Program-made: the position numbers and the translations under genes
Shown: piece by piece, positions 169 through 33,569 of the stretch
How positions within the stretch are numbered: the stretch's first letter is position 1
Layout of the letters: the number at the start of each line of letters is the position of its first letter
Notes under the pieces: model-generated
What the model was told of the DNA's origin: nothing
What the model saw: only the letters and a program-made list of their open reading frames with translations
Database searches by the model: none
NCBI GenBank assembly: GCA_043228905.1
Contig: JBHGNT010000017.1
Span: 9,300,001 to 9,364,000 of the forward strand
DNA: 64,000 bases
Source: Azolla caroliniana
Taxonomy: Eukaryota > Plantae > Polypodiophyta
Direction of reading: 5' to 3'

Positions 169-920
169 CCTTTCATACTTGGAACCTCTTTACAATTGAG
201 CATCTGATCCCCGCTAAGTAGACGTTGTTGTACTCTATGTAGCCGCATATTACTAACACATAACGCAATTTTGAATGCAACTCTACATATCTGTTGTGCA
301 TGGAAGATATAATACTCGAATGATACTTTGATCCCCGTACATTTGTCAGATACTAGTTGCATATGTGTCCCGAGGTAAGTGTCTTGCTCATCACCGGTCA
401 TCGAAAAATAGTATCGCCTTAATTCTCGCAACTTTGATTTTCCAATCATAGACATACAACCACGGGCACAACATATTTTTTTGACATCAAATCCAATCTG
501 TTTATCTGATGTCACCAAGCTAAATCTAGCCAGACGAATTCTTCGTGGGATTCTTCTAATATGCATAGGGCTCCCAGATTTCTCTTCCTGCATAGAGTTT
601 GGTGTAACCTTGTTACAATCTCATTCTTTGTTGTGACCATCGCCAATGTTATTCAATGTTTCCTTGGCACTACCTTCATTCTCCGTATCTTTATTAATAT
701 CGTATTCTTCAATAGAGAACTCTTCACATGTGTCATTATTTACATTCCCTGTAGATGAGCTCAGACAATATTCTTCGATAGAATATGGTGAGTCTGTCGA
801 CAGACAATATTCTTCAATAGAATATGGTGACTCTGTCGACAAACAATACTCTTCAGTAGAAAACGATGAGTCTGATGACAAACAATATTCTTCAATCGAG
901 AACGGTGAATCTTCACTCAT
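169..920 (-). pseudogene. N-terminal part of a Sola-like / DUF7869-type DNA transposase, disrupted
   Basis: ORFs 621-920 and 132-593 share a frame, split by one TGA at 621-623. The protein has the CC-x3-C ... Y ... QDTYL ... Y ... ICRVAF..ALCVS..RL pattern that I recognise from Sola/DUF7869 transposase N-termini. The DDE core is not in the window. Confidence 0.55.
700..915 (-). repeat. 39-bp coding tandem repeat (S-x-E/D-SPYSIEEYCL)
   Basis: About 4-5 copies of the 13-aa unit are visible in ORF 621-920. Confidence 0.85.
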
Positions 921-1622
921 GGCTTAAGGTCTAGATAGGGCTCTGTAAGTTATGTGCTTAGGGTAAGGAAAAATAATAATAAGCTCCTCTCTAAACATAT
1001 ACTCCTCTCTAAACATAAACTTCTCTCTAAACAAAAGCCAAATCAATAGAATGTCTATATTATGTAATATTATATTAATACAATACATAAAAAATTTATT
1101 TTTAATATAGTAATTATATTTAAAATATCAATTATTATTTAAACTACATCCATATGAAGTTAAATCAAGTATAATATAAATCTAATCATTACCAAGCCAT
1201 AAATATGTTGGATTAATGTTAAAATCATTGGCTAATTAATGACACCCATATTTGATATAGAACCTCTCACTCATTGGTTCTTTAATGCTCACCATTTTAA
1301 ATATTAGACTTATCAATCATTGGTTAATTCATGCCCACATCTTTAATACACAGCATTTGAGAGTCATAAAAATTGTTGCTTTTAGTAATCAATCATTGGT
1401 ACATTCATGAACCTCTATCATTGTCTCCTTCATGACCTTTGAAGTCATTGCAGGTTGTTATCACTATAAAAGATTGATCAATATGTTAGTTTGACTTTGT
1501 AATCATTAATGCAATCATAAGTTACTCTAGTTAATGTCACTGTGGTTACCAACTAACTATCCTCAAACTTACCAACCTTGGTTAAGGTGACTATGGTTAC
1601 TTTAACCAATGTGGTCAATCCC

Positions 1623-1630
1623 TATAAATA
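1623..1630 (+). promoter_or_regulatory. TATA box (TATAAATA) of the ParB-MTase gene
   Basis: CCTATAAATAGG is followed ~25 nt later by a pyrimidine/CA initiator-like TTTCACTCAC and GAGCACACA leader repeats. Confidence 0.55.
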
Positions 1631-1728
1631 GGAAGACCTCGTCATATTTCACTCACAAGAGCACACAAGAGCGTACAGAGCACACAGAGCACACAGAGCG
1701 TATAGAGCACACAAAACACATAGAGCAC

Positions 1729-1995
1729 GTATCGAGTTCCTATGTTTCCTTTGCTTTTTAAACAGGAACTCGATACGGCATATCGAGTTCCCGTTTAAAA
1801 TTTAAGTTTTAAACAGGAACTCGATACGTCGTATCGAGTTCCCGTTTAAAGTTTAGGTTTTAAACGGGAACTCGATACGCCGTGTCGAGTTCCCGTTTAA
1901 AACCTAAACTTTAAACGGGAACTCGATACACCGTATCGACTTCCTGTTTAAAAAGCAAAGAAATCACAGGAACTCGATACGGCGTATCGAGTTCC
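1729..1995. repeat. Array of 27-bp palindromes (GGAACTCGATAC-NNN-GTATCGAGTTCC) with 24-bp spacers, 51-bp period
   Basis: Full palindromes start at 1765, 1816, 1867, 1918 and 1969, with a half-site at 1729. Spacers 3 and 4 are exact reverse complements; spacers 1 and 5 are near reverse complements. Confidence 0.95.
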
Positions 1996-2504
1996 TGTAT
2001 AAAAGAAGGCCCTGAAAGAGAAAATTTGTGTTTTTTGGGGCAACAATTAATTATTGTGTGGAAAAGATATCAAATTGTCTGTCAAAATTAGTCTTTTTTA
2101 TGTTGACTTGCCTTACTTTTTAAAAAAACATGCCCTAATTATAGGTGTTTTATGACCTACTATTTGCTTAAAAGAGTAGAAAATAACCCACAAATTACCT
2201 TTATGATAGCAAATTCTCCTCAATATAGGTCTGGAATCTATATAAGTCATACCTCCTCTTTAAAAGAATATATAACCTTGTTTACTTATTACGATATATA
2301 TTTTCTAGTTTGAATAGCCCTGCCTAGAATGGATTTTTGAATATAGGACTACCATGTACTTTGAATGCATGATTGATATTTTCACTTCACCACTAATCGC
2401 CTGCTAGTGAGAATTGTTCTTCATCTTCTTATTTATATTTTAATATACAACCTTAATCTACGTGACCACCTAACTTATGTTTTTGCATGTACTTTCTTAA
2501 ATAG

Positions 2505-5500
2505 GTCGTTTGAGAACCTTCGGACCGACCCGTGAAGAAAATAAAGCTTCGCATACAGGGTTCTCCAATCGAAGCCCAGACCAAGGTAGCTCTTGAGACC
2601 ATGAAGAGAGGAAAAAAGCTTCTCTTTAACGAGGAGACAAAATCTCAGCCACACATTGACGTTAGCCAAAAGAAACTTGTCGCTGCTACTGGCGGTGAAG
2701 ACCTTCCTGACCGTAATCTAACGGACAAGGAATGGTGTATGCAATATGTCGACTCAAAGAAAAAAGTCGTATTGTATACAGCAAAGAAGAAGGGGGAGGG
2801 GTAGCTTGGAAAGGAAACCCCATTTATGTATGGCCATATTCTACGATTTGACTATGAAGATGCAGATTCATCCAACATACTGGTAATGATAGAGTGCTCC
2901 AAGGGGGTACGTAAAGTGTTCCTTTCAGAAGATCTTTTAGTAAAGGAATCTTGTGGGCCAGAAGCGTTCAAAAAAGATCTTGAAAGCTCACAAAACCTTA
3001 TTGTTACGTTGAGGCCTTATATACAAGGCCATGTAACTCTAAGAGATGAAGTGTCCTCCCCATTGAAGGCTACAAAAAGGGTATCCAAAGTCCAGTCAAG
3101 ACCACCAAAGAAGAAGACATCCAAAATGTTGGACACCGATTCAACAAGTGAAAACGAAGAGGAGGACAATAAGGGAACGCTAGGAGCTGAGCTGGCATCG
3201 GGTGTTTTGTCATCCGAGCAAAATAAGATAAGGAGAGAGTTAATGTAGCGTAAACTGGTCAGGAAAGGGCAAGTGTTTAATTTGCCTATAACACACATCC
3301 ATCGGCCCCCTATTGAGATTAGAGAGCCACACCGCATGCATGTTCAAAATCTCAAGAAAAAAATGAAAATTAATCCTCATGCCACTGTGGTGCCTTTTAT
3401 TGTTATGGTAGATCTTGAAGAATGTGAAACCATTGAAGATTTTGATATTAGAAAGCATGATCAATATAATTACTTTGTCATTGGTGGATCGCATTCAGCG
3501 GAGGCACATCGGCAACTTGTGAGAGAACATCCAACGACTTTCTTCTTCAAGTATGCCGAGTGCAAAATTTATGTTGGGCTCACAACCGAAGAGGATAAGC
3601 TGTTGGCATGGGACCATAATAATGATAATGACTATAGGCAGAAAATGTCGTCCATTGAGCGTATACGGTTCTTCCACCACGAGTATTTGGACGTGAAACA
3701 AAAGTTTGGTGTGAAGTTACGTCCAGGCCTACGACGTCAATGTCTGCATGAAGTCGGCATTGTTGTAGATGATAATGTTAAGTCTGATGGTCTTCGAAAA
3801 TATGAGTCTTGGTTTCAATTGGCATTTAGAGATGGAGAAGTATGGGACCTACAAGATCAAATCTTCTCAATGTGGGAGAATAAGGAGGTAAAGGGTCAAC
3901 GACAAAAGAAATGTAAGGTTGACCCTCAACTAGAGTTAAAGTCACAAGCTGCCAAGAAAATTGACTTGACAATTGAAGAAGCCGCAGACGACATGAAGCT
4001 GTCTCTGTGGATAGCGATGCAAGGTATTAAGGATGAGCAGCTTCTTGTCTGTTTTGTCAAGGGTTGTGGCGAAAGATTTAAGCCTTTGAAGAAATGGTCA
4101 CTGAGTTCAATAAGTAAGTCTTTCAAATACTGAAATTGTAGTCTATATGGTGTAATTCAAAGTTCTAATCTTGGTTTCTAATTTACAGTCATAAGGTGTA
4201 CATTAAGATCCAAGAAGTTATGATGAAACAACTTGGATGTATAACTTGGGAACAAGTGACCGAGGATTATCCTCTCACATCTTCATATAAGGCGTTATCA
4301 GAGTATTTTATTGCATTCAAGGATTGGGTTAGTATTGATGGTTTTTCATTACCCTTTTATTATATGTAGAGCTTGTATAATAATACCTGATGTCCTATTG
4401 CTTCTATTAGAAACCGTGTCGAGGCAAGAAACAAGGAGAAGTTAAGGATATACACGATTTCCCTACATCCTTCCTTGCACATCTCGAGCGAGCCAGAAAA
4501 GAAAAGGATCATCGCTTAGTCAAGGCGTATGAAATGGAGGAAGATGGCTCCTTTAAAAAATTTAGCCACAAAAAAGATATTACGAGAGATCTTTACTACA
4601 ATGTGGTTTGCGGTGATGTCGTCGACTTGATCCAAAAGGTGCCAAAGAAGGAATATATGCTAATGATTGCAGATATTCCTTATGGATTTCGAATGGCTAG
4701 GTCATCATACGACGATGAACCGTTTAGGCTTAAACAATTGGAGAAGATGGTCAAGGATTTCGCTGAGCTAACGACTGCATCCTTGTGGCGAATAATTGTC
4801 TTTCATAGTATGGACCAAGGATACTCGGCAGCTCAAGCTTTGAGATCTCGTTGCCATGGCATCGAGAACCTTGCTTGGTAAGGATTATTTATAGGTGTCT
4901 TTCACTATATTGCATTTTTTAAGGTTGTTCAATCTATTCTTAACTCGATGTATTATTTTTTATAGGATCAAGACCAATGTAAATAGAGGGCCAACTTTTC
5001 GGTTTGTTAATGCCATTGAATACATCACGGTTGGCTACTTCGATGAAATTAAGAAACAGAGAATCAAGGAGCATTCTAATGAAGTGGGAGGTTCAAATCT
5101 GTTGGTATATCCAGCAGTGACACGGAAATTGCGACATGTCACCATGACAGAACGGGGACTTGTCAACCCATATCAAAAACCTCAACGACTTATGATGCAC
5201 TTGATCGAGATGTTTTCTATCGAAGGAGACTGGATATTAGATCTCTTTTCTGGCACAGGTATTCCTCGAACTAGGGTAACAATCTTGAGATAACCAATCC
5301 CGAATCTTTTTTTGTTTGACAACTAAATCTTCTTGTTACTTACATCACAGGAACGACGTCTACATGTGCATTGAAGCTCTTTAGAAATACAGTTGCATTG
5401 GAGAAGGACGAGGACCAGGTTATATTTATTAATATGTAGATTAAGGCTTTGTGGGAGTGCCCAGACCAGGATGAGGAGGTCGGTGCAAAGAACCTCGCTA

Positions 5501-5703
5501 ATACAGAAACGTTTCAACCTACTTTGCGAGAGCCTGTTCCTCCGTTAGTCGGCGAACCGGGGGAGCTAATAGAGCTTGATGATGAGCTTATAGAAGATAT
5601 TTCGTTGGCTCGGCTAACAGGGGAAGCCAATGCACGTATAGCCGAAGAGAGTTCTACACAAGATGATGAAGAAAATGGCGTTGATGAATTGATTGCTATG
5701 TAA
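2505..5703 (+). pseudogene. Spliced ParB/Srx-like domain + beta-class N6-adenine/N4-cytosine DNA methyltransferase fusion, pseudogenised
   Basis: Exons 2505-4113, 4189-4327, 4411-4877, 4966-5258, 5351-5703, with GT-AG introns that keep frame. ParB-like block: IREPH..VQNLKKKMK..PFIVMVD..YFVIGGSHSAEA..LAWDHN. MTase motifs in beta order: GDVVDLIQKV..MIADIPYG (4672-4683), WIKTN..NAIEYI, NPYQKPQRLM..LIEMFS.EGDWILDLFSGTGTTSTCALKLFRNTVALEKD. In-frame stops at 2511, 2802, 3246 and 5437, plus indels at ~4050-4087. Confidence 0.85.
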
Positions 5704-6370: not shown

Positions 6371-7299
6371 GCACGTATGGGTCAAAGTATAAATTATGAC
6401 TCATTTTATTAGTATGGATACAAGTACACCTGATATTTTTGTAAAACTTACCCAATTAATATAAGTCTTTAAGTTAGTGTTTCCCTTGTCGCACAGTAGT
6501 GACATATTGAACCACTGTTGAACTTTATTATGCCTACATTAACTTATCAACGCGTCTAAACTTGCATGATTTCTAATGATCTCCACTCGTAGACCTATCA
6601 TGTATTTTTATATTTGCAAATTCTCATCAAGTTGAGGAACATGTGATACTAGTGCATCCAATTTTTGTAGAGAGGGTGTATTTGCTTCGTTTTAAGAAGA
6701 TTCTACAAGTGGAATGTGCAATCCTTCCACTTGTGAACGCGAATGTGTTTTAGCACGACGAGCACCTTTTTATAGTCTTTTGGGTTGTGTTCTGGTATGG
6801 TTTCAGGAGTTGACAATAAGTTCTTGCAAAATTTCAAGTTTGACTCCTCTTTTTTGAAGAATTTGTTGTTTTCGACATACTGAACCTTTTTTTTTTTTTT
6901 TTTTTTTACCATAAAACATATGCTCCATTGGTATTAATAAAAAGCCCGGAGGCAGTATACAAATAGTACATAATATTGTTTCATCTCCACCAGTATATCT
7001 GAAATGATTCTAGTATTTGTAAAAACTGTTGGGAAAAAAAACAGCCATAAAACACAACATTGATTCCAGTGATCTGCTGCAGATTCCATGTCCTCCGTCT
7101 TTCCAATCATATGTGTCAGGTGTAAGAAGATTTCCGTCTCTGTAAGAAGATTCACCATCCCAACAGAAACAGTTGCAAACAGATCTGAAGTGATTCCAAC
7201 ATTTGTAAAAACTGTTGGGGAGAAAAAAACAGACCATGAAAATGAAATGTACTATACTAATTCCACCTCTCACCCCATTTGCTTTGATCCCCACAACTT

Positions 7300-8400
7300 A
7301 TTCACTCTCCCTTCATGATGTGCTTAGGCCCCCTCACCATCATCACTCCTAAAAACAACCAAATTGCTTCATTCAATCCACCTCCACCATCTCGCCGAAT
7401 GCCACCAATGTCCTGTGGAATTAACAACAAAATAAATAAAAAATTCCTCATCCCCTCATGAGCTGCTTCGATCCCCCCCACCATCATCACTCCTAAAACA
7501 GACACATTGCTTCCTTTAGTCCACATCCACCATCTCGCCGAATAGCACCAATGTCCTGTGCAATGAATCAACAAAAATGAGAAATTGTTCCTCATTCCCT
7601 CATGATTTGCTTCGTTCCCCCACACCATCGTCACTCCTAAAAACAGAGAAATTGCTTCAGTCAAACCACATCCACCATCTCGCCGAATACCACCTCTGAC
7701 CTATACAAAAACAACAAAAACAAGTGAATAATGGTTCCTCATCCCCTCATGATTTGCTTTTGTCCCCCCCACCATCATCACTCCTAAAAACAAACAAATT
7801 GCTTCAATCAATCCACATCCACCATCTCGCCGAGTACCGCCAATATCCTGTGTAATTAACAACAAAATAAGTGAACAATGATTCCTCTCCCCTCCTGATC
7901 TGCTTCAGCCCTCGCACCAACACCACTCATCCTCACACCATGACAAAGTTGCTTCAAATCCCAATGCCATCATCCCGCAACCTATGAGAACCATAATATC
8001 TGTCTTAAGTCAACCCATATCTAGGGTATCTTGCTTCCCCTATTCCATCTCACCGATTAACGCGGTCCTGTAATCACAACAAAAAATGAGCGAAAATCAT
8101 TCCTCGCCTTCTCATAATAATCTGCTTCAGCCCCCACTCCAACATCACTCATCCTAACCACAAAAAACAGAAAAACGGCTTCGTCCTGTCCCCATCTACC
8201 ATCTCACTATCTCCGATTCGACAATCCTGTTACACTAACAACCAACAAATGAGTAGAAAACAAACAGAAATCCTCACCTTCTCCTAGTAATCTTCGACAA
8301 CCCCCACCACCATCAGTCATCCTAATCACAAAACAACTTAAACCTATTTCAACCTGTCCACATCCACCATGTCGATGTCTCTGATTATCACACGAAATCT
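7300..8400. repeat. Diverged ~150-bp tandem repeats
   Basis: Recurring CACCATCATCACTCCTAAAA...ATTGCTTC...CCACCATCTCGCCGAAT units, about 6-7 copies. Confidence 0.8.
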
Positions 8401-8548: not shown

Positions 8549-11500
8549 TCATGTTGTTCGCCATAAGAATGGTACTGGTGGCGGGAACAACCAACGAGGT
8601 GGCACATAATTCCACCTAACCTCCGTGCCTGCATCTAACATTATAGGAATAGCTGACCAAACTCGTCGTAATCTCTTTCTTTTTCGAATGGTTGTGTTTC
8701 CATAGCCTTTATACCTGTCATACTCACCTTTAACCGAATGTACTAATAAATTCCAAAAAGACTTTACCTGATCCACAACATGAATGTCTTCATCATTGTA
8801 TAACTTGGAGCACCGAGCTTTCCAAAGAACCCATAGAGACAACGAGGAGACAATCTGCCAAACATAGCTCCGCGAGAAGAACTTGACTCCCTGCAAGGAT
8901 CCTGAAGTAGAATATACCTGAAAACTTCTTACATATAAAGACAATGAAGAATGATTATAATGATAAAAAGCCCTTTGTTGATCCAACATTCCCCAAAAGA
9001 CTGCACCCCACGTAAAAATAGCAGACTTATACTTACGGCCTAGAAGCCTAAGAATTCGACACCAAAAACTTTTTGCGGAAACACATTCCCAAAATGCATG
9101 ATGCAATGTCTCATCCGCAAACCCACACATAATACATGACCAATTACTCATCGATCTCCTCAATAAATGACCTATTGGCAATGCATAATGAATCATCAAC
9201 CACCGAAAATGCAATATCTTATTCATGCATTTAATAGACCAAAACTGTTTCCAAAACATAACCATATTAGTAGATGAAACATTACCTTCCTCCCAATACT
9301 TTTTTCCAGCAGGTATTGGCTCGGTCTGCCTCAACATAAAATTCCTACCAAACGCTACTGAATATTTGAAAAAAGGAAGGATCTTAGTCGAAGAGTCAGA
9401 TATGGATAATTTCCAACCATAATCCGCTGGATCCCACTGCAGGTCATCAATAGGTTTAGAGTCTAACACCGAAATATGAGATGAAAAATTAACTATTAGT
9501 GGACTAGGATCGATATATATATTTTTATGTAATCTAGCAATTACTCGCACTGGCAATTGCTTTGCAGCCAACATGATTTGAGACTCCTCATCCACTAGTA
9601 TCAACCTACCATTGTCCAACACTTCATAAAAATAAATGCTACCATTTTGATCATATAACCGAGCTCCTATAAGTATATTGAGTGTCGAGAACATACCGTA
9701 CCAACTCTGAAAATGATCGAATTGCAATGTAGGCATTGTGACCTGATACACCCTGGACAATTGTGATAACATGATCTTAGCCCCTCTTAAGTTCGATAAC
9801 CTATTACTTTGCTCCAACGTAGAGGACTGCATAAACCTTATCCAATCCGCAACCGTACGAGCTGGTCCACTATCCATTGCAGCCCATGATAACCTAGGGC
9901 GTAAACCCAAAACACATGCAGCTTCATCAGTAAATAAAGGATTCCATATCAATGGTTGACGCATAAATTGATGATAGCTTTTCGGTGGCAAGAAAACAAG
10001 CGCTTGCCGAAGAGTTTCCCATGCCCGAAAAATTCCATTGAAGAAACGCAATGATCCATCATTGGACTTAGGTAGCTGGAAATCTGCATTAAAGAACCAT
10101 CTAAGACTCTCCTTCCATTGACCACCTACCGAAGGCTTGACCTTATATAGATGTTGCATCCATAGCTTTTTCCATAACTCCTGTCCTGGCAATAAACTCC
10201 TAACAACATGTTTAGTAAGTAAAGCTTTGCTTTGCATAAATGGATCAATCAAACCTAAACCACCTTTTTGTTTAGGTTGTATCAGGATAGACCAAGCTAC
10301 CTTTGCTACAGGATTGACTGACCTATTGTTCCCCCAAATAAAATTCCGTACTAAACGTTGAACTTTCAACATTATTGACCTAGAAAACAGCCATGTAGAT
10401 GCTATATACCAAATCGAGGACAACAACACCGCATTAGCTACAACTACACGTCCTGCTAAAGATAATTTTTCTTTATTCCAATATACTAATTTATTTCTTA
10501 ATCTTAACAATAAGGGTGCAATCATATCTTCTGACTTTAATCCCACACCCACTCGACAACCTAAATACCTAATGGACTGACCTTGAGGTATCCATGTGAA
10601 TCCTAAAGAGGGTACATTAACTGGCGGATCTCCCAAAGCGACCCAAAAACCTGATGACTTATCCCAATTTATCAATGCACCCGATGCATCTGAGAAATCA
10701 TCCATGGCCTTTTGCGCATGAAACAAATTACCATGTGAGGCCTGAACATATAAAGCTGTATCATCAGCGAATTCACAATCCACATTTGCGTTTGCTACTG
10801 GTAGTGCTAAACCTTTAATATTTACATATGGAGAATTTAAATGTACAGAGAATGCTTCGGATACTAACAAAAACAGGAAAGGAGCAAGTGGACATCCCTG
10901 GCGTACAGATCTTGAAATAAAAAAATTCCTACCAATGTCCCCTGCAAATAATAGAGAACTACTTGCATTACGATATAATGCTGAAACTCCTCGTATCCAA
11001 TTACTTGGAAAACCCATCCTAACGAGTGTTCCCTCCATAAAATTCCAGTCCACTCTGTCGTAAGCTTTTTCAAAATCAAGAAATAACACCGCCAGATCTT
11101 GCTTCTGCACTTCAGCGATGGTCACCATTTCCCAAAAGAGAATAATATTATCAAAAATACTTCGCTCTTGCAAAAAACATGTCTGGGTATCATGAATCAA
11201 CTCCGAAAGATAAGGTTGTAACCGTCTAGCTATCGTTTTTGCTAATATCTTATAAATAACATTCAACAAAGTAATTGGTCTCCACTAGCTAAGCTCTTCT
11301 AACTGTCCACTTGTTTTAGGAATCATATAGATTAAACCCTCCTTCCATTCTTGGGGCATATTTCCAGAATCTAAAATTTGTTGATAGGCCTTAGTCAGCC
11401 CATCACCTATCAAATCCCAATACTGGATATACCATTGAACTCCCAGCCCATCCACACCAGGACAAACATCCTTTGCAAGGGCTTTTACTGCTTTAAAAAC

Positions 11501-12916
11501 CTCTTGAGTACTTAATGGTTGTAAAAGACAACGTAAAAGATTTCCAGAAACCCTATTCTGAACCCTAGACCATATAATGTCCCTCTTAACCATATCAGCC
11601 TCAAAAAATGGTCTAGCTTTTAACAAAGCTTCATAATAATCAGAGGCTATTTGTCGCATCTGGCTAGGATCCGTGGTATAAGAGCCATCAGGACATCTTA
11701 ATCTAGATATCCTAGCTGATGACTTATGATGATTATGCACTGCAAAGAACAACTTGTTGACTTTATCTCCCAATTCTGCCCATGTGGATGATGTATTGTG
11801 ATAGTTAAAATCAACAGAAATCTTTTGTAAGTCCAATATTTGATTCCCTACTTGAACCACTCGAGCACTTATATAACTCGAATGTGGTCTTCTCTCTTGC
11901 AAATGTTGCAGGGATTTCAATCCCCTACGCAGCCTACCTATTTTAGTTAAAGATGCATAAAATACTTGTTTAGCCTTCCTGTAAAAAAATTGTTGTGTTT
12001 CACTAATAGCCTTGTGAACACTAGATAATGCATAATCATAGGAGTAGTCATACTTATTCCAAATATTATGCACCGTAGGGGAACAATCTGGGCTAAGAAA
12101 CACATGATTCGGAATTCTAAACCTTGAGTTCTTATACTGCTCCTGTAAGACTATAACTAACCGAAGTGGTGCATGATCAGAAAAGGAAAATGAAGGTATG
12201 ATTCCAATGGAACCTCCTTTGTCCCACAAAAACTTATCAGCATAAAATCTATCTAACCTAGACAAATTTGCATGTGATTGTCTTCTATCTGATCTTGAAT
12301 ACTCTAAGGAATCTTGTATCCTTGTAAAAGAAGACACATGCCACAAGTCCAATAAACCTAAAGAAAAGATTAAACGTTCCCATTCATATAGTTCTAAACC
12401 AGATATTGTTTGTGATGTGCCTCCTAACCTATCACACCCATCCTCCAACATATTAAAATCACCTGCCAATGCCCAATGGTCAACAACTGGTAATTGTGCC
12501 ATTAGGCTCTTCCAAAGTATCGTTCTATCTTTCGTATGATTCGGTGCATATATATTCAACAAACCCCATTTTTTCAAACCAATTTGTAAAATTACATATT
12601 GACCTCTACCACAAGTCAAAACTCCGTAATGTAAGAAAGCAGAGCACCAAAAGTCATTTATTGCAATGCCAAGTCCCGCCTTCCGATTATTATCCCCAGT
12701 TGCAAGCACCCAAAATTGTCTCCACTGGCCTAGCAACAAATTTCCATATTTTTGTATCCTTTGTTCATTTAAATGATGCTCTTGAATAAGAAGAACATCA
12801 ATTCTACCTATGACAGACTTTCTTAACTGACGACGGAAAACACTCCTTATTTTAAGGTAATGTTGGCCTCCCAAGCCCCGTACATTCCATGAAATAATAT
12901 TTAATCTATCCATCAT
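8549..12916 (-). pseudogene. L1 ORF2: APE endonuclease + reverse transcriptase + zf-RVT, one in-frame stop
   Basis: SWNVRGL, IQEHHL, AGDFN, SRLDRF, SDHAPL; WRPITLLNVIYKI, LDFEKAYDRV, RQGCPLAP, FADD; C-x2-C..ETLHHAFWEC. Single TAG at 11285-11287. Confidence 0.92.
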
Positions 12917-14345
12917 TCATGTTTTGCACTCCTACTCTACTTTCAGCCAGTGCAACGTCTCTACCCTTCCTTCCATCTTCGGAGGCCCGTAATTGTCTCC
13001 TATTTGACCAAATGTCTTTCCCAGTCACCTTATGTGCACACACAGGCATGTGTTTATCTATGTTAGAAACCCTATCAGATGACTTATCAACTATAGTAAA
13101 AGCAACTATATTACCACCCTTCATCTCAGCATGTGTGAGGTCAACCTTGAGCACTTCATTTTCCTTTTTAAACTCTTCGAAAGCAACGGATGTATCAATT
13201 TGTTGTACTTGGTCTAAAAATATTTGTTTATCGTTACTAAATTGATTATTAACCTTAAAAACAGATTCCACATCTTGTACCTTCGGAAATGTGTCTTTCG
13301 AATTATGTTGCTCGTTCGTGAAAACTGGGATGGAAAAACCGCCCTCCACTTTACTAGTCCCCACCTCCTTTTCCGTTTCCTGCAAGGAATGATAAGGATT
13401 AGCTTCAAGTAATAACACTGGCTTAACCAACTTACTAATCGGTTTAAAAACATGTTTAGCAGCAACTGTAGACCAACCCTCATTATTAACATTCGGTTGA
13501 CTTGGTGCACGTGCTTCATCCTTCGGCCGGCGCTTTTGATAATCTCGACCTAAATGACCAAATTGTCGACACACAAAACATTGATTAGGTAAACCTTGAT
13601 AATATATCTTTTGCACAACCGGTGATTTATTCATAAGTAAGTTAGGTAATGTAATAGTTGACGGCAACCGAACAGATCTTGGTGCAATCAACCGAACAGC
13701 GGGTACCCCACCCACCTGTCCCTCGCGCATACCAATGACCTTACCTAACAATGTCCCAATACGAGGAAGAACATTCCTCCATTCCTTCCTTAATCCGGGG
13801 AATACCGCCGTAAACACCATACTAGACTCTTGATCCTGTAATATGTCATCTACATTAACATTATGAGACCATTTATGAAAAGATATCCATGCACCTTCCA
13901 CGCCCGCCTCCTTAATTGCTAGTAGCTTCGTGACGGCCTCCTCGCTTGCAAATTCCACATGGTAACATCCCCGAGACATAAATTGAATATCGATTATCTT
14001 ATCCGCTTCCTCCGAGAAAGCCGCGTACAAAGTATGTCGAAGTTCCGATCGATTTAATCTCAAACCCTGTACCTACACCACCAAGGAGTAAACTTCCAAC
14101 CTTTGTACCTCGCCCAAAACCACAGCTCGATCCTCCTCCGATAACAACAGGTCGACTGTCTCATCACTGAAATGAGGCGAAAATTGGGGGGGTGCACTGG
14201 ACTCCCTTGCTCGCGTATGCAGTCCAGCTGCAGATGAAGTAAGCGGTTGGCCCGCAGTCGACCTCCTGCGCGCGTCGGGATCACCTGTTTCTGAGGTCGC
14301 GCTGCTCGCGTCATACGCGACCTGTGGTTTTCCTGTCTACTGCAT
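12906..14345 (-). pseudogene. L1 ORF1 (DUF4283/RRM-like + zinc knuckle), two in-frame stops
   Basis: ATG at 14345 is in frame with ORF 12906-14063. TAG stops at codon 3 and ~14073. YQGLPNQCFVCRQFGHLGRD knuckle. Overlaps the ORF2 start by 11 nt. Confidence 0.8.
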
Positions 14346-17300
14346 CTCCTCTCAAAAAAAACCTTTTTCTAGCATATTGGTTGTCGTTGGAGCACTGAAA
14401 CCATTCAGCTTATTTCGGAGATCTACCACTTGTTGCTAAGAATCCTCAACAACAACCTTGTTCACTGATCTTGATCCTTGAGCTGTTGATCTTCGACTTC
14501 TACATTTATCTCCACTTCTACTTCTACATTCAACTCTAGTTTTGCTTCTTTTGTGATAACATCCATTCGCATTTTAGCCGCATGATCTATAAATGGTAAT
14601 GACACACATAAGAATGTCATTTGCCTTTCTATGATCATTCTTATTCCTCGAAAATGCTTACATTTACTTGCAAGGTCTCGGCAATCGCAATAAGAGCATT
14701 GGAGCAAGACATTGTACCATAGAGTTAAAGTGGTCACGGTCAATATTTTAAACCAATATTTGGCCTCACCCACAAATTGGATATCACATACCTTTCTAGT
14801 ATCCTCTCAGCCTCTTTAAGTCTCGACCTTTGATTCTTACAATTTGCATGGGTTGGAATCTACCACTCTCATATATATCTTGCCTTTGCATGTACCATTC
14901 TATTACAGTTCCTCTAATGCAAGTGTCAGACACACTATCTCCAATTAAAGCATGCAGTAGATCAGTAATAAACTGCTTAATTCTTTCTCTCAAGGAAATG
15001 TTTAAGATAAATTGCCAATGTCTCTCCACTTGTTGGTAGTGTCAACATGTCCATGGTTAAATAATCTTCCAAATTTGGGCCATAGATTCCGCCGAATATA
15101 AGTCTTTCCTCACCATTCTCCTTTTATATACTCACAACTTTGGGTTTGTTTGACTGTTATTGCATTACTTCTTCACACATAGCATTGAGGGTGCATTCCA
15201 TTATGCAACCCATGAGTTGGCACATCCGTTGGTAAAGGTGGTGTCTTTCAGTAGCACTCACTTTGGGCAACAAGTTAGCAACCCATGATTTTTTAGCATG
15301 GAACTAACACAGTAAACTATGGCAATGTATGTGTGATCTTTCGCCATTTGCAACAATCCAACATTGATGGTCTCAAGTAGTAACATTAGATATAGAATTA
15401 TATTCTTTCCAAGATTTATCATTGACTATGACATTTGGGCTTACACTTGGCATTCTTGCAAATATAACTTTCAAGCAAGTTTCCAATGTTATTTGCTCAT
15501 GATTTGAGCACCGATCATAGTAGGATCCGGATTCCCATATTGTTTGGTGCAACTGTTGCATATAATGGCAACTTGGATTGATTCGTTTTGAATGTGAAGT
15601 CAATTGCCCCACTCACACATTTCCAACATCCATTGATCTTGTAGTATCAAAATAAATGGTTATAGGGTTGGAAATCCATTTTGGCCTGGAAGGTATGATT
15701 GGACATGTGCCACTTTCCCTTCCTCTTCAAGGGCATAGATATATTGCGCCATCAAAGAACAATTATCGTCCAACAATGCACTTCTTATTTTTAGCTTATT
15801 AGCCATATTATGCACCTCTATTGGTAATAAAAGAAACAAGTTCTAATGGACTAACCTTAGACATGTGAAATGATTCTTTTTGCATGCTCATCTTGGCAAC
15901 ATGCCTTACACACTCAACATCAAATAAGTGATCTTTGCAACAACTTATTACATTAGGATGGGCCAACAAATGTTACACGTCACGTCTTGTTCCTAGGACA
16001 AGACCACTATGACAACCGTATACATAAATGTTCGCAATCCCATGTTTAATCCCTTCATTCAATCTTAAGCTCTCATGAAATTTACATCCACAATGCTTTG
16101 AACCCTTCTGACTTTATGTGCGCCTGATCAATTGTCAAGGCACATCTACACAATGGCAATCATATTTGGCCACATGTTTGCCTACCCCTTTCCGCAAGCA
16201 TGTATTATACTTGATTTGAGCCTCAACTAGAGTATCATATATTAGACTTGTGCCCAACATGTCATTTGGTGTAGCCTTTTGTATTAACTAGCATTGGTCA
16301 ATTAGTGCTTTTACGTATGCACTAGATATTCCATAATCATGAAGATCCATGGCCCAATGCTTCTTTAACTCTGTAAGAGTTTATGTTAGTAGGTGATGGG
16401 TTGTCCCCCCATGTGAGTGTAATACTATCTATCTCCATTGATCTACAGATGATACTCTTAGATTAGGCAATGTCTTAAGTAAATTGTACTCTTCATTTTT
16501 TAGCATGAGTTGACTCTTCAAGTGCCTCCATGCATTAAAATTCACAAGCATACCCTTTGCAACATCTTTTAAAGATTCAACTGTGACCTTAAATATTCCT
16601 AATAAATCTTTAACCAATAGTTCATATGTACCTTGATTGAAGTCAAAAAATCTTGGGGAGCAAAACATTGAGGGATCCATGTTGTTCTTAGTTTCGTCAG
16701 ACTACGACTCGTTGTCATCCTCAGATGTCATTGAAGTTCCTAAATGTGATGAGGTTTCCTTTATTTCGGATTCCAACTCAAATATAAAATCTTCCACTTC
16801 AAATAAGTTATCACAGATGTCTAACATGATAGCAATATGAAAATTGTAGCTATGAATGTAGAAATAAGAGCAATATGAAAATGATATTAGTCAACATGAA
16901 ATATTCCATAATATGAAATGGTAGTTGTGGATGTTAAAATGATAGCATTGGAATTTGCCAATGTGCTGCAAAAATGACGTTGATGGAAGGTGGTTGTTTC
17001 TAATTGTTGAAAACTAATAATTACATGTTATTGGTGTGGAACGTAAATTTGGCTAGGTTAGTTGCAAACATTATCTTTGATATCTTTTCTAAATTACAAT
17101 GGTGCTCCTAACATAAGAATGTGAAAATGAAGAGCACATTTGATATTTTTAACATAAAACCAAGGGGTGTCTGAAATTCAAGTCCGTCACAAGGGACGGG
17201 CAAGTTTTAATTAGGTACTACATATATAGAAAAGGACCTACTGCATATATAAAATTATTGTGTGCTTTTAATGTCCCAACACCAATTGGACTTGGTGACC

Positions 17301-21200: not shown

Positions 21201-24200
21201 TCCTAACCTTGTGTCAATATAGAAATTAGAAATTTCTCAGCTGACCATAGTGGCAACAATTATTTATGGAGATGGACACTTGCCAATTTAATTGTAACTT
21301 TTAGAATATTTTACAAAATACTCGCTACGAGTTTCTTATCAACATAGACATTAGATCCCATCAAAGCCATGTTTCATTCGAGCATTAACCAATGACTTTC
21401 TTACTGTAGTCATTGCTTCAGCATTTGGTACCGCCGCATAACATGCCCACAATGCCTCCTTCCTCATCTATACATGGAACAGTTGAATTACTCATAAACT
21501 CGCATGGTATCAATCACATGATAAAAGTAAAAAAAGTATGGAGTTTAATTAAGAGTATACCCTCCATAATTGTTCCTTTTCTTCAGGTGTCTCATAATAC
21601 TTAAATCCCGCACCATGGTGCTCTTCTGCTATTTTCTGCACTCTCAGAGTTTGCTCTAGAGCATATGCATCTGCGAATCACATTTGAATCAATTAGACAA
21701 ATGATTAAATATTATACTTTTATAAGACTAGAATACAATGGACTCACTGATCTCTGTGCAAGCGTATGGGAAAAGCAAAGAAAGATTATATTGGGCATAT
21801 CTAAGCAACTCCGTAGACTGACATTTCAATACCAATTTCTGATACATATGTTTAATACTGATTTCCTCCAAGAATTCGAAACATTAAGTTTTCCTAATGA
21901 TTATAAGATCATGCAAACAATGTTAAGGAAATCCTTGCCAAAACGACCCAAAGAGAGGTAACGTATCTAATGTATCAGGGAGTGCAATCAACAAGACATG
22001 AACATGATGAACCATGTTGTCTTTATATCCCACTATGCGTCTTTATATCCCACTATGCCCCAAGTCAAAGTAATATGTATCATGAACCTCTAACTGAAGA
22101 AATAACGACATATAACCTTATAAAAGGTCAATTTGTACATGTGAAATTATGGCCAATTGATTCAGTTCAAGTATCAACTGATATGATCCAATGGTTGGAG
22201 CCTTGAGTCTATCGAATTAAGGTCTAGATCAAAGTTGGAATATGTGTTTTCAAGTTTCTACAAAGCTTGTTTTCAATCACAGTTAGAATATCTGTTTTCA
22301 AGTTTCTACAAAGCTTGTTTTCAAGTTGGAATATGTGTACAAGTTGCAATGTGTGATAAGGAAGCTGCAAACTTCTTCGCATCAGTTAGAGATTGAGGTA
22401 GGCAGATGTACACAAATACCTCTTGAAGAAATAATTTGTGTCAATGGAGTGAAATCTGAAGAAGAACATTTGTCATTGTACTGTTTTTATGAAATAAGAT
22501 GGAGAAACCATTGTCTCTAAGCAACACTTTGGCCCATTATGCAAGGTAACGGAATATGAGGACCAACAGTACTTGGGACTTTTCTTGCTAGAATTGAGAG
22601 ACACAAGGAAAAATTGTTGAAGGACAACAATACAAGCACACATGCTAATCAACAAAGTGCAAATATAGCTTTTGTTTAGCTCCATTACTCCTGCAAGTCA
22701 ATCAAGGGCTACACAAATGGGCTCCCGACTAGGATGTTGACAAGGGGTTACAATAGATCAGGCAATAGCAATTTCTTGATCATGTAGTCCTCGGGCTCGT
22801 GGACCACGATCTTATCACCCTTGTCATCAACAAATAAAGGCCATTATCTCCCACCATCACAAGTGCCTTGCTCGCTTCAGAGACCTCTCCATTCTGGATT
22901 GGCCTACGCTAGAGATTTTTTGAAGACAAAAATTAGAAGATATATGATTCGAGAAACTTACATGTATAGATAAGATACTTTCGTCACATCGTCATTTATT
23001 TCATTTAAGGTACATTTATTTATTTTGGTTATTGTTTCTTAAAGCCAAGACAACATTTTAAGATGCAATTTCTTGTTTGATCTTACAGGCCATTTTGATT
23101 GGTATTCATAGATAAGGTTGCATATTATGATAGTTCATCTTCAGTTTATGATTTAGAAGTTGGATTTGTGAAATATAATTTTCCATTCAACTCACACATT
23201 ACCTAAAATTACATAATCAGGGAAACAGGTCATCGGGGAACTCATTTTTCTTGATTAGTATTCGTAGATAATTGTGCATACTATGATAGCTCATTTAAAT
23301 GTATGATTTATAAGTTGGATTTGTGAAATATAAATCTCCATTCAACTCATTAATTACCTGTGCCAACAAACTCAAACATTAAGATTGGTGTTTCCTTCAT
23401 ACTTCCACCATTAGCAATATTTAAAATCTTTACCATGACTTCATCCAGAAGTTCTACCCGACTAACCTACAGCCATCCCATCAAAAAGTGGATTATGCAT
23501 AATAGAATAAGTGAAGCAGGACGTAAGTCCAAAAAACTCTTGCCTGAATGCCACAGTGCATTGTAGCAATGGCCACATCAGCTGCATCTTTGATTGAAGG
23601 GAAGTTGCAGATTGCTACCTGAAGAACCCAATCTCAATAAGAAAGAAAAAACTTTTTAATTTCGCAATATGAAAAAACTTGGCTAAGGATAGTTCTCATA
23701 GTAAATGCATACAACAGATGCTTCTGGGATCTTTTGAAGTTTTAATGTCACTTCAGTTATAATCCCTAGTGTGCCTTCACTTCCAATCATCAATCTTGTC
23801 ATATCATATCTTCAAAAAAGAAAAATAGGACATAGATAACAATATTAGAATTAGTTCAGCATTCTTTTTAGCATACAAAGAAATAGCAGAAGAAAGAAAG
23901 ATTTTAGCTTTTGTTACAGAAGCAAATTATCCAAACTAAATGCTAAAGAAAAAAGATATTACTTATATGTACAAATTGTTACGTACATCCATAACATTCT
24001 CCACAATCATTTCAAAGAGAAAGAAGAAGAATCTTAAAGTTTCACTCCTACAATGCTGAAGAGTTTAGGGTATCAAGGAGAAATAGTTGGAAGAAATGAG
24101 ATGAAATAAAATGAATGGCTCCAAAAAGCCTAAGTGACACATGAGTCAATGAATTACATCCACATGAATCTTATAGAAGAATAGTAAATAAAGCTAAGAC

Positions 24201-27200
24201 ATTGTACCTAAATTATGTATCTCGGTTGTGAGCATAGTACAATGATATAGGAACCATGATACAAGTTATGCAGAGGATATTATGTACAGAGAGGTAGAAC
24301 GTGAGTTTGTCAACTGATGAACACTCTCATAGGATGATGCCATATGATAACAATGTCATTCACGATGAACCACCCGGAAGATCATGCTCAAACTTCAGAA
24401 ACAATACTATGTATCATCCATGTCTTCTATGTGATGATCCATCCATGTGCCCTAGAGGTTTTGGAGTGAGCCAAATGAGCTTTTTGGTCAAGCATTATTC
24501 TCCATCTTATATACTTCATCTCCAAACCCCACAAGCAGAGCATTGGACCTCACCTTGGTTTATGGACTATCCTGACCAAAGACAAGTGGGATTCTTGTGG
24601 TCATCATATGAAAATATTAGAGAGACTATCATTGAAGTAGAAGAATCTCATGGCTCCTACAAGTACTAGGTAGAGATAATAGGCATGCATAACAATACGA
24701 TGCACAAGAGTTTCCATTAGTTGTATTTCTTCCAGATTTCTTATTCTTTCTTTACATCATCTATACATGCATTACATCAACCTAATAAATCAAGCTGTAT
24801 ATACCTAACGAATTGTAGCATTTAATAATGGCATCATCTGCAACGGACTTGAATCTTGTACACATACAACCATTTTCCCAAGACACCGTTACCAGTAACT
24901 CTGGATCTTTGGCCATTGGCAAATATTTTCGAAGACGTCAGATAAGTGCTTTTTTGGGAAATCTCACAACAAACTTCATTATCATCAACAAAATTCTTGA
25001 TCTACATTAAGACAGATACCGTGACCTGCTGGCCATTTTCACGAAATCACTTCGCATATTTTGACATAAGATTGAGGTTTTCCAGCCAGAAACATAATGC
25101 ATTACGAAGAACTTACATCATATCTAAAAACAAGTCGTTAATCATGCATAGTTTACATAATCCATTGAGAAGTTTGGGACAAACCCTGCAGATGTTTTGC
25201 GAGCACGATTTGCTGTTTTGATCACATCTCCATTCGCGAGAACTGCCTGCAGCAGCACCAGATAATACCTGAAATTTGGTGAATCAGCTGGTCTCTAAAG
25301 AATATCTAATAAGGATAGTATCAAAGCTAACCTTCAATGAGATAACATTGTCCTTCATTGTACCATACCTGAGATATTAAAGTATAGAGTAAGAAGATAA
25401 TCACACAATATTATAATTGAACATCAAGGTGAACAATGTTAATTTATCCCTGCCCAACATAATTGATACATGGGAAGGGAAGGAATTCATCTTGATATGC
25501 AGATGATTGCATACAGGGCAGTTCAATACCGGACAGCAAGAGAGCCTGAACAACGAGTTGCACACATCCCACCAATTGACGCTCCAGGACCTGGCACATA
25601 TTTACATATCCCACAAAAAGATGCTCAGCTTGATTAAAGAAATTTATTTCATACTGAACTAGTTCAAACTTCACTTGATAAATAGCATACTTGAAAGTCC
25701 TATATGTTACTGCTTTTATGCTACAAGGGTACCTGGATCTAATGGAAAAAATAATCCATAAGGTTTCAGAAATTCATTAAGTTCAATCCATCCAAGACCA
25801 GGCTCCACTACCACATCCATGTCATCAACATTCAGCGCTTTAATAGCCTAAGAGCATGCCAAATAAAACTTGTCACATTGTGGATGTGCAACAGAATTCC
25901 ACAAAATGAAGTGCTCACCTTCATTTGACTCATGTCAACGCTTACACCCTTGAAAGGGGTCAATGTTTGTCCTTCAATTGAGGTGGCACCACCAAAAGGT
26001 ATGATTGGAACCTAAAACAAAATGTACATAAGGTAGAGTGAAGAAAGAAAGAAAATATATTTATGTCTTTCAAGAGGCCAAAATGGCCTATACGACCACA
26101 AGAGATTGCATTTTAAAATGTTGTATTCTCTTTGAGAACAACAAAATAAATTAAATGTGACTACATAAAAAGTAAATAAATGCAGAAAGAAAGACAGAAA
26201 ACGATATTAACATCTTTTAAGAGGCCAAAATGGCATATAAGACCAAACAAGAGTTTACATAGTACAATATGTTGCGGTTGCATTGTTGTCCTTCAACTTC
26301 TCTCTATCTCTTGAGTTCTAGTAGAACAATCCCAAACCCTGTTGGCTTGTGTATTCCATGATTTGGAACAGGGGGCCAAAGCCTTGTTTGAAGAGGCAGT
26401 GATATCTCCCTCTTATTTCATCAAAAACACCAGTGGCAGACAGTGTTTTTCTGATTCATCCACCTGATGGTACCATTGCCATATCCATTCTTTCACAAGC
26501 TTGACTGCATATCTGCCTATCTCATTTCTAACTAATGTGAAGAGGTCCTGAACTAGACACATGAGATAGAGGTCTATCCATATAAGAAAGAAAGAAAGAA
26601 AGAAAGATATATCAAAGTCTTAAGAGGCTGAACTGGCCTATAAGACCAAACAAGAGATTACATCTTAAGTGTCCTCTCGTCTTTGAGACCAACATATCAA
26701 AATGAAATAAATATTCCTAAGTAAATATAATGGAACATAAAATAAAAAGAGACTAAATAATCTTGTTTTCGGCACATGTAAGATTCTCAAGTCCAATATA
26801 TTGTAACTTTTGTCTTCAAAAGATCTCTGGCATAGGTTGATCCACAATGGAGAGGTTTCCGAAGCAAGGTAAGCACCCGCAATGGTGGAGATAACGGCCT
26901 TTACCTGTTGATGACAAGGGTGGTGATATTATGGTTCATGACGCCGGTGCCTACATGCCCTACAAATTGCCATTGCCTGATCTTTATTATGCCCTAGTCG
27001 GGAGCACATTTGTGTAGCCCTTGATTGACTTGTAGCATTAGTACGAGTGATGGGACTAAAGAAAGTTGTGATCGTTCTTTATGGATGAGCTTGTGTGGTT
27101 GTAATGTTGTCAAACAACTTTTCATTGTGTCTCTTGAGTTCTAGCAAGAAAAGTCCTAGGAACTGTTGGTCCTCATATTCCATTGACTTGCGTAGCTGGC

Positions 27201-31228: not shown

Positions 31229-31599
31229 GCTCGTGACTAACTGCTACCAAATATTAAAGAGGGCAAGTGAGGGAATCGCGGAGAGGGACGGTACAGGTCA
31301 CATCGCTGATGGCGCGTTCGATCTCCACCGTCCAAGATGGATAAAAAGCTGACAACGTCTGTCAGAAGGAGCCCGACTCTGCGAAAAGGAGCCCGACTCT
31401 GCCACAGGGAGCCCGACTCTGTCAAAAAGGAGCCCGACTCTGTCAGAAGGAGCCCCGCTGTCAGATCACATCAGTAAGAAGGAGCCCGACTCTGTAGCAA
31501 CAAACATCAAAAACTCCACAAAATTGTAAGTGTACAACAAATATTTTCCATGAAACTGACCATAAAATTTCTCAAAAAAACGTAAAGGTTCAAATAACA

Positions 31600-32790: not shown

Positions 32791-32802
32791 CCTTAGTCAT
32801 AA

Positions 32803-33040
32803 GATTGACATTGAGTCTTATTATGTCTTTGAAATGGATTGACATTGAGTCTTATTTATGTCTTTGAAATGGATTGACATTGAGTCTTATTTATGTCTTT
32901 GAAATGGATTGACATTGAGTCTTATTTATGTCTTTGAAATGGAATGACATTGAGTCTTATTATGTCTTATTATGTCTTTGAATTGGATTGACATTGAGTC
33001 TTATTATGTCTTTGAAATGGATTGACATTATGTCTTACTA
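32803..33040. repeat. ~35-bp tandem repeat
   Basis: GATTGACATTGAGTCTTATT(T)ATGTCTTTGAAATG, about 7 copies. Confidence 0.9.
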
Positions 33041-33562: not shown

Positions 33563-33569
33563 CATTGCA

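What the first reader, a model, noticed from the sequence alone, without database searches (positions are those of the whole stretch)
1729..1995. Strictly phased 51-bp array of 27-bp palindromes upstream of the ParB-like gene (parS-like?)
Seen: 5.5 copies of GGAACTCGATAC-NNN-GTATCGAGTTCC separated by spacers of exactly 24 bp. Spacer 3 is the reverse complement of spacer 4, and spacer 1 approximately of spacer 5. The array can therefore fold as many small hairpins or one long one. Each half-site contains TCGA, and 51 bp is close to five helical turns. It lies ~100 bp downstream of a TATA box. Known: ParB-family proteins load at clustered palindromes near their genes. Inference: a loading or methylation target for the fusion protein, or a hairpin/siRNA source in the 5' leader.
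Basis: partly seen in the sequence, partly recalled or inferred. Interest (0 to 1): 0.8.

Follow-up and report, generated by a model that had tools for sequence, protein, structure and literature searches.

The report
Palindrome array in transposon methylase intron
A row of evenly spaced palindromes lies in the predicted first intron of a ParB-fold DNA-methyltransferase gene carried by a multi-copy plant jumping gene (likely from a fern), and likely serves as the docking site from which that protein would mark the element's own DNA; the copy here is broken, and the same idea is already in print for algae.

Summary
The array is real: 5.5 palindromes at a 51-bp period, 11 half-sites against 0.02 expected. 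Each site is better read as 13+1+13 bp. It belongs to a Sola-type DNA transposon, between the DUF7869 transposase and a ParB-fold/N6-N4 methyltransferase cargo gene. All 3 of 3 metagenome hits lie in this cassette, just behind a short first exon, so the array is intronic. This window's copy lost that exon by a deletion ending at a palindrome centre. Between subfamilies the arms are 88-93% identical and the spacer middles 37-46%; four-fold sites match at 18 of 40. That points to a sequence-specific protein-binding array, not a hairpin RNA or MITE, though the hits were chosen for one exact site each. Best reading (0.6): the element's own ParB-methyltransferase docks here and probably methylates the element. 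Binding, methylation, the HTH and a CTP clamp are unshown; GxxR is absent in 20 of 20 close relatives. The gene pairing (Ectocarpus Sola1-1) and arrays beside ParB-like cargo (red-algal Plavaka) are published. The scan has noted this family many times on other pieces of this genome.

The parts
1728..1995 (.). Array of 5.5 palindromic sites (13+1+13 bp), 51-bp period, 24-nt spacers that occur in both orientations
1621..1632 (+). TATA box of the cargo gene, conserved in four other promoter arms
1657..1728 (+). Predicted 5' untranslated leader with GAGCAC repeats. It ends at a deletion junction (shared CG) that removed exon 1 and the 5' splice site and stops at the centre of a palindrome
   Evidence: the junction is spanned by a 72-nt contig with no differences in run X2 (record 13)
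1996..2504 (+). Remainder of predicted intron 1; acceptor AG at 2503-2504; not alignable with the same intron of L003
2505..5703 (+). Broken cargo gene: PH-like N-terminal domain, ParB/Noc-type domain (GGSH loop), helical domain, then beta-class N6/N4 DNA methyltransferase (DIPY before FSGTG). Predicted exons about 2505-4113, 4189-4327, 4411-4877, 4966-5258 and 5351-5703. Stops at 2802-2804 and 3246-3248, a short deletion near 3310 and a frameshift near 4050
   Evidence: exon limits read by eye from splice signals and homology
169..920 (-). 5' part of the DUF7869 (Sola-type) transposase, facing away from the cargo gene; similarity stops at 169
   Evidence: 133/150 identical to the open 932-aa transposase of L002
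6714..6749 (-). Right terminal inverted repeat of the element, likely ending ...GTT
   Evidence: 89% over 37 nt to the left end of the L002 element; termini compared

Best explanation
The array is a fixed part of a Sola-type plant DNA transposon, lies in the predicted first intron of the element's ParB-fold/methyltransferase cargo gene, and likely serves as the docking site for that protein, which would bind each palindrome as a dimer and probably methylate the element's own DNA. SHOWN: the array and its 13+1+13 site; its place in the cassette in this window and three other loci; fixed arms against drifting spacers, intron and silent sites; an N6/N4 methyltransferase domain in the same gene family. 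PREDICTED: ParB/Noc fold of the middle domain and a homodimer through it. INFERRED: sequence-specific binding by this protein rather than another; methylation in cis (adenine more likely than cytosine, from the D-x-P-Y motif, a recalled rule of thumb); a benefit against host silencing; and growth and reshuffling of the array by fold-back copying, which would explain spacers in both orientations. The window's own copy is broken and could only be a target for protein made by other copies.
For: (1) Linkage: 3 of 3 exact-site hits in the metagenome scan lie in the cassette; none is free-standing. In four contig sets the summed depth on the palindrome is 6-12 times that on the TATA region, in the range of array sizes seen (2.5 to about 10 sites); the tool warns that depth is no copy number. 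(2) Constraint: arms (positions 2-12) are 0.88-0.93 identical between subfamilies, spacers 0.58-0.63 and spacer middles 0.37-0.46. Four-fold sites window vs L001 match at 18 of 40, first and second codon positions at 140/153 and 144/153, and the 3' part of the intron does not align with L003. Spacer length is 24 in 11 of 14 junctions. (3) Protein: the top Foldseek matches of the P0001 model are Noc and ParB (best E 3.1e-4); VIA Z 8.8, rmsd 2.5, 99 aligned to Caulobacter ParB over residues 251-384. 6 of 20 long relatives pass Pfam N6_N4_Mtase, as does the window's own exon. The helical domain after the ParB fold is as conserved (0.84) as the ParB domain (0.85) in 20 relatives. (4) The homodimer model of residues 236-542 of P0001 scored 0.55, best of 3 controls 0.09, runs agree in at least 49% of contacts, pLDDT at least 72. 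The mark was reached by 21 of 30 microbial pairs and 0 of 23 single chains, and by 17 of 29 eukaryotic pairs but only 1 of 7 without an older solved relative, so the pass may come from likeness to solved ParB dimers. (5) Precedent: PMC12477816 and bioRxiv 10.1101/2025.02.11.637652 (passages); VANC binds motifs in tandem repeats in non-coding parts of VANDAL, introns included (PMC5735166, passages).
Against: No binding or methylation was measured. The three outside loci were chosen by an exact 24-base match, so one site in each is conserved by construction and family members with other palindromes could not appear; no protein-first retrieval from metagenomes was left. L001 and L003 are one subfamily, so there are three subfamilies in all. 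The GxxR phosphate motif that ParB needs for nucleotide binding (PMC12704722, passages) is absent in 20 of 20 close relatives (GGSHS), which weakens a CTP sliding-clamp step. TCGA is not significantly better kept than the inner CpG (4 vs 11 decays in 41 half-sites, p 0.08; p 0.21 without the chosen sites). The whole-protein model is of modest quality (pLDDT 58.5, pTM 0.36). The transposase and host factors are not excluded as the binder.
Confidence: 0.6

Rival explanations
1. The array binds another protein: the element's transposase (an internal enhancer of transposition or an operator between the two divergent genes) or a host transcription factor. The ParB-methyltransferase would act elsewhere.
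For: The array lies between the two divergent genes, about 800 bp from the transposase start. Fixed arms show a sequence-specific binder but not which one. L002 keeps a long array beside an open 932-aa transposase while the held part has lost the cargo coding exons. Exact telo-boxes (motif recalled) lie in three L002 spacers and at its 5' splice site.
Against: The half-site occurs nowhere else in the window, not even at the terminal repeat where a transposase binds. It sits inside the cargo gene. Red-algal elements of another superfamily have inverted-repeat arrays beside their ParB-like gene, so arrays follow the ParB gene rather than one transposase type. The window and L003 have no exact telo-box.
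Confidence: 0.17
2. The intron is transcribed and the array folds into a long hairpin that is diced into small RNAs or affects splicing, so it would work as RNA.
For: Very stable fold (z = -23.7). The array is downstream of the TATA box in the transcribed intron. In L002 two promoters face each other across the array.
Against: A structure alone could drift by compensatory change, but the arm sequence is the same in three subfamilies and only 2 of 38 changed pairs are compensated. Any palindrome folds, so the energy does not discriminate. All Rfam miRNA matches are far below their gathering scores. No second copy of the arm, as a possible target, lies in the window.
Confidence: 0.1
3. The array has no function: it is a fold-back, recombination-prone repeat that arose once and is carried along by the transposon.
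For: Spacers occur in both orientations. The window's deletion ends at a palindrome centre. L002 joins two promoter/exon-1 arms that are 67% identical, head to head through the array. Unit number varies from 2.5 to about 10.
Against: Fold-back copying keeps symmetry but not sequence. Yet the arms stay at 0.88-0.93 while silent sites fall to 18 of 40 and the rest of the intron cannot be aligned, and spacer length stays 24 although spacer sequence drifts.
Confidence: 0.1
4. The array is an independent MITE or foldback element that happened to insert here.
For: The palindrome draws far more contig depth than its flanks.
Against: 3 of 3 outside hits are in the cassette at the same place. Loose ends of contigs at the array edges read as further units. 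Only 0-5% of what was laid runs on into unlike sequence, though these contigs are short.
Confidence: 0.03

Closest known systems
Sola1-1_Ec32 of Ectocarpus (PMC12477816; passages and supplementary table rows seen)
   Same: Sola transposase with a ParB-like/N4C-or-N6A methyltransferase gene on the opposite strand; proposed to bind and modify its own element; termini begin AAC and end GTT, like the ends inferred here.
   Different: Brown alga, 21.5 kb, 1104-aa protein. The main text has no occurrence of 'palindrom' and the passages seen mention no array. Sequence kinship of the two cargo proteins was not tested.
   Same: Tandem arrays of inverted repeats next to a ParB-like cargo gene of a DNA transposon, proposed as parS-like self-binding sites.
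   Different: EnSpm/Plavaka superfamily. ParB is fused to a 2OG oxygenase and the methylase is a separate gene (PAG2). Arrays are described as adjacent to the gene, not intronic. The supplementary figures, unseen, may hold array sequences.
VANDAL/VANC anti-silencing system of Arabidopsis (PMC5735166; passages)
   Same: A transposon-encoded protein binds short motifs multiplied in tandem in the element's own introns and intergenic DNA and changes its methylation.
   Different: MULE superfamily; 8-9-nt motifs, with no occurrence of 'palindrom' in the text; VANC causes loss of 5mC, whereas here the cargo carries its own amino-methyltransferase domain. Shown by experiment there, only inferred here.
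Bacterial ParB-parS and Noc-NBS (PMC12704722; passages)
   Same: ParB N-terminal fold, predicted dimer through it, clustered palindromic sites near the gene.
   Different: No ParA, no GxxR in close relatives, 27-bp site, methyltransferase at the C-terminus, and no segregation role in a plant transposon.
DAM-carrying DIRS/LTR retrotransposons (bioRxiv 10.64898/2026.05.21.726589; abstract and passages)
   Same: Transposable elements carrying prokaryote-type adenine methyltransferases, with raised 6mA on the elements.
   Different: Retrotransposons; no occurrence of ParB or Sola in the text; reported absent from Streptophyta, which the paper says lack abundant genomic 6mA.
MpDN4MT1 of Marchantia (bioRxiv 10.1101/2021.02.12.428880; passages)
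   Same: Prokaryote-type amino-methyltransferase in a seed-free land plant.
   Different: Host gene with TSPPY that writes 4mC in sperm; no ParB mention; here D-x-P-Y and transposon-borne.

Membership tests
ParB-parS (CTP clamp) | ParB N-terminal fold | tested here: met
   Model of P0001 (90% identical to the window's ParB region): Foldseek E 3.1e-4 to Noc; VIA Z 8.8, rmsd 2.5, 99 aligned to ParB
ParB-parS (CTP clamp) | GxxR phosphate motif (Box II) needed for nucleotide binding | tested here: not met
   GGSHS in 20 of 20 close relatives. 6 of 29 rows of the wider alignment have G..R in that loop, register unverified (motif)
ParB-parS (CTP clamp) | Central HTH domain that reads the site | tested here: inconclusive
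   Whole-model alignments to ParB/Noc/KorB run through the helical region (residues 252-542); the region folded alone gave no clear match
ParB-parS (CTP clamp) | Dimer | tested here: inconclusive
   Model supports it (0.55, best control 0.09) but may pass by likeness to solved ParB dimers
ParB-parS (CTP clamp) | Clustered palindromic sites near the gene | tested here: met
ParB-parS (CTP clamp) | Partner ParA ATPase beside the gene | tested here: not met
   The element holds only the transposase and the cargo gene
ParB-parS (CTP clamp) | Site-specific binding, NTP-dependent loading and spreading | not testable with these tools
   needs EMSA, BLI or ChIP
Sola DNA transposons | Sola-type DDD transposase | tested here: inconclusive
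   DUF7869 E 6.4e-52 for the L002 transposase, 89% identical to the window's fragment. The link of DUF7869 to Sola is recalled; no Repbase or Sola1/2/3 profile was available
Sola DNA transposons | Terminal inverted repeats | tested here: met
   The window's right end matches the left end of L002 in reverse, 89% over 37 nt; two different copies, not one
Sola DNA transposons | 4-bp target-site duplication | not testable with these tools
   No held copy shows both ends; 4 bp is given for Sola1-1_Ec32
Beta-class N6A/N4C DNA methyltransferase (class order recalled) | PF01555 domain with D/S-x-P-Y before F-x-G-x-G | tested here: met
   Window DIPY (exon 4) and FSGTG (exon 5), PF01555 E 4e-8; 6 of 20 long relatives pass the cut-off
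Beta-class N6A/N4C DNA methyltransferase (class order recalled) | Catalytic activity and target base | not testable with these tools
   no modification data held
VANDAL/VANC anti-silencing | MULE transposase with a VANC-family protein | tested here: not met
   DUF7869 transposase and ParB-methyltransferase instead; it may work like VANC without being a member
VANDAL/VANC anti-silencing | Target motif multiplied in tandem in non-coding parts of the element | tested here: met
MITE or foldback element | Dispersed copies independent of a host cassette | tested here: not met
   3 of 3 outside hits are inside the cassette; small sample, no whole genome held
miRNA precursor | Match to a known family, or discrete small-RNA products | tested here: inconclusive
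   All 27 Rfam matches are below gathering score; small-RNA products could not be examined

The most novel reading that the evidence does not exclude
A streptophyte-wide family of DNA transposons (relatives in Chara, Riccia, Ceratopteris and Ginkgo) uses a ParB-derived dimer that loads at an intronic parS-like array, without the canonical CTP motif, and spreads a bacterial-type methyl mark, probably 6mA, over its own element: a portable self-recognition and epigenome-writing module in plants reported to lack abundant genomic 6mA.
Probability: 0.27. Interest if true: 0.85.

Novelty: new variant of a known kind. Interest (0 to 1): 0.5.

Why it matters
If the protein binds this array, the published but untested idea that transposon-borne ParB fusions recognise and modify their own element becomes directly testable, with a defined 27-bp site, a 51-bp spacing and natural variants. 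It would put a sequence-targeted amino-methyltransferase in land-plant genomes and add a second transposon self-marking strategy beside VANC. The concept itself is not new, and this copy is dead.

Tried and rejected
No whole genome is held for this window, so no genome-wide co-occurrence count was possible. Viral contigs gave no relative of the protein and no exact site; prokaryote genome contigs gave no relative. No RNA holder was listed; this says nothing on expression. The helical domain folded alone (pLDDT 75.6) gave no Foldseek match at E <= 0.001 and no VIA Z >= 5, with Spo0J at rank 47, Z 2.7; this does not exclude an HTH. Profile searches of the PDB sequences gave only chance matches, and the methyltransferase exon matched one putative methylase at E 0.28. 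A search for longer relatives of exon 4 found none. Selective protection of the TCGA CpG is not significant. Strict helical phasing is not established. Rfam miRNA families were rejected. A heat-shock-element reading was considered and dropped because the arm does not fit GAAnnTTC (motif recalled, judged by eye). The 'other letters' tables disagree at position 1780 and were not used for conservation claims. The original Sola paper is not held. Literature searches found no paper describing this array or this cargo in land-plant Sola elements. A plant TIR-transposon survey has no occurrence of ParB (PMC12973397, passages). Iyer 2016 (PMC4738411, passages) describes ParB-HTH fusions of another methyltransferase group in chlorophytes and chytrids. 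Iyer 2011, cited for green-algal cases, was not seen, and subscription journals are mostly missing.

Full report
OBSERVATION. The array is at 1728-1995: five full palindromes and one half, period 51, spacers all 24 nt. The 13-mer half-site has 11 matches in the window, all in the array, against 0.02 expected. The three-base centre is G-N-C, so the site is 13+1+13; the 13th base is G in 32 of 41 half-sites over four loci. The outer ends of the spacers are also symmetric (79% consensus or better at six of the eight flanking positions), leaving about six free bases per unit. Fifty-one bases equal five turns only at 10.2 bp per turn.

SURROUNDINGS. Downstream lies a spliced, broken gene (2505-5703). 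Its closest named relative in the first search is a Ceratopteris richardii protein (67% over the ParB region), which is why I call the host likely a fern. A profile search found 619 representatives at E <= 0.001. Of the 20 long ones that I picked from the 150 listed, 6 carry Pfam N6_N4_Mtase. Ten look-ups named Chara (3), Riccia (3), Ginkgo (1) and Ceratopteris (1), and two had no organism. The model of P0001 (pLDDT 58.5) matches Noc and ParB first. Upstream, on the minus strand (169-920), is the 5' part of a transposase that is 133/150 identical to an open 932-aa DUF7869 transposase in L002. The window's 6714-6750 matches the far end of the L002 element in reverse, giving a terminal inverted repeat that likely starts AAC, as in Sola1-1_Ec32. 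The array is thus an internal part of a Sola-type cut-and-paste element with divergent transposase and cargo genes. That DUF7869 equals Sola is recalled, not tested.

OTHER COPIES. An exact-site scan of metagenome contigs gave 3 loci. All 3 are in the cassette. Four promoter arms (L001, L003, both sides of L002) show TATA box, GAGCAC-rich leader, a 35-nt first exon starting with ATG and a GT donor, then the array. In L003 that exon is in frame with exon 2 across a 532-nt intron. The array is therefore in predicted intron 1. The window's copy has lost exon 1: its leader joins the centre of a palindrome through a shared CG. A 72-nt contig of run X2 spans this junction without a difference at depth 14, while depth summed over the TATA region is about 59,000, so the junction is real and rare. 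Contigs of four runs in each of two calls cover the region with hundreds to thousands of variant pieces (90 in the smallest run), showing a multi-copy family. Palindrome depth is 6-12 times TATA depth; the tool warns that this is no copy number.

WHAT IS CONSERVED. Between the window and L001, four-fold sites match at 18 of 40 while codon positions 1 and 2 match at 140/153 and 144/153, and the 3' part of intron 1 cannot be aligned with L003. Against that, arm positions 2-12 are 0.88-0.93 identical between the three subfamilies, whole spacers 0.58-0.63 in the better orientation and spacer middles 0.37-0.46. Spacer length is 24 in 11 of 14 junctions. Only 2 of 38 changed arm pairs are compensated. 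Fixed sequence with fixed spacing and free linkers is what a protein-binding array looks like; a hairpin kept for structure alone could drift. The limit is ascertainment: each outside locus was found by one exact site, and L001 and L003 are one subfamily. The outer CpG (TCGA) decays less than the inner one (4 vs 11 of 41) but not significantly (p 0.08; 0.21 without the chosen sites).

MECHANISM. The most likely binder is the cargo protein, because the array lies inside its gene, not at the element's ends, because the protein has a ParB fold and a predicted two-fold dimer through that fold (score 0.55, best control 0.09, at least 49% contact agreement, pLDDT at least 72; possibly by likeness to solved ParB dimers), and because red-algal elements of another superfamily also have inverted-repeat arrays beside their ParB-like gene. 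Docking would bring the methyltransferase domain to the element, to write a predicted amino-methyl mark, more likely 6mA given D-x-P-Y (recalled rule). A ParB-style CTP clamp is doubtful: GxxR is replaced by GGSHS in 20 of 20 close relatives. The HTH is not established (membership test). Spacers in both orientations, varying unit numbers, the window's deletion and the L002 head-to-head join of two arms 67% identical suggest that the array is reshuffled by fold-back copying or recombination. One central breakpoint and one join, which may be a mis-assembly, are anecdotes, not a test.

KNOWN AND NEW. The Sola plus ParB-methyltransferase pairing is published for Ectocarpus (PMC12477816, passages and supplement rows). 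Inverted-repeat arrays beside ParB-like cargo, with the parS analogy, are published for red-algal Plavaka elements (bioRxiv 10.1101/2025.02.11.637652, passages; its supplements were closed and may show the arrays). VANC is the proven case of self-targeting through tandem motifs (PMC5735166, passages). My searches found no description of an intronic palindrome array with a ParB-methyltransferase in land plants. Earlier AI notes of this scan reach the same reading on other pieces of this genome (218 of 266 notes fit the look-up, 8 shown; 75 findings in at least 2 genomes, 8 shown); they are not independent evidence, and my reading was recorded before them. It works like a parS or VANC target array but is not a member of either system.

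VERDICT. Observation confirmed; interpretation partly supported; new variant of a known kind; interest 0.5.

Noticed in passing
L002:5480-6730: Two different promoter/exon-1 arms (67% identical) face each other across a 480-bp array of about ten sites, next to an open 932-aa transposase; either recombination between two elements at their palindromic arrays or a mis-assembly.
   Followed up: partly
L002:5755-5994: Four exact telo-box motifs (motif recalled), three in spacers and one at the 5' splice site; none exact in the window's or L003's array region.
   Followed up: partly
L002:109-1877: The element's left end interrupts a Gypsy-type pol (integrase) reading frame.
   Followed up: no
window 2650-3020 (P0001 residues 62-176): The cargo protein's N-terminal domain folds confidently and matches PH-like and DNMT1 RFTS domains only weakly (Z up to 4.7); it could be a chromatin- or partner-binding module.
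   Followed up: no
window 723-912: 39-bp tandem repeat encoding an acidic S/E-rich repeat at the transposase N-terminus, also present in L002.
   Followed up: no
window 1490-1620: Short GTTA/TAAC-rich symmetric repeats just upstream of the TATA box, kept in all five promoter arms aligned.
   Followed up: no
window 8549-14072: LINE-like element on the minus strand (ORF1-like, endonuclease and reverse-transcriptase frames; family names from recall of the motifs).
   Followed up: no
window 7282-7875: Four copies of a roughly 145-bp tandem unit.
   Followed up: no
window 31233-36999: Element with 110-nt terminal inverted repeats (95%), a MULE-like transposase remnant (label recalled) and several minisatellite arrays; a related 185-nt piece lies at 15609-15793.
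   Followed up: no
window 40535-45803: Copia-type element with LTRs 99% identical over 300 nt and long open frames, strongly CpG-depleted (o/e 0.12).
   Followed up: no
window 47549-56994: Gypsy-type element with LTRs about 95% identical and broken pol frames.
   Followed up: no
window 22485-23076 and 26098-28703: Several 72-96% inverted and direct copies of one roughly 600-bp repeat.
   Followed up: no
P0021 (Chara braunii): One annotated 1825-aa protein holds two ParB-methyltransferase units in tandem, perhaps two adjacent copies merged by the gene caller.
   Followed up: no
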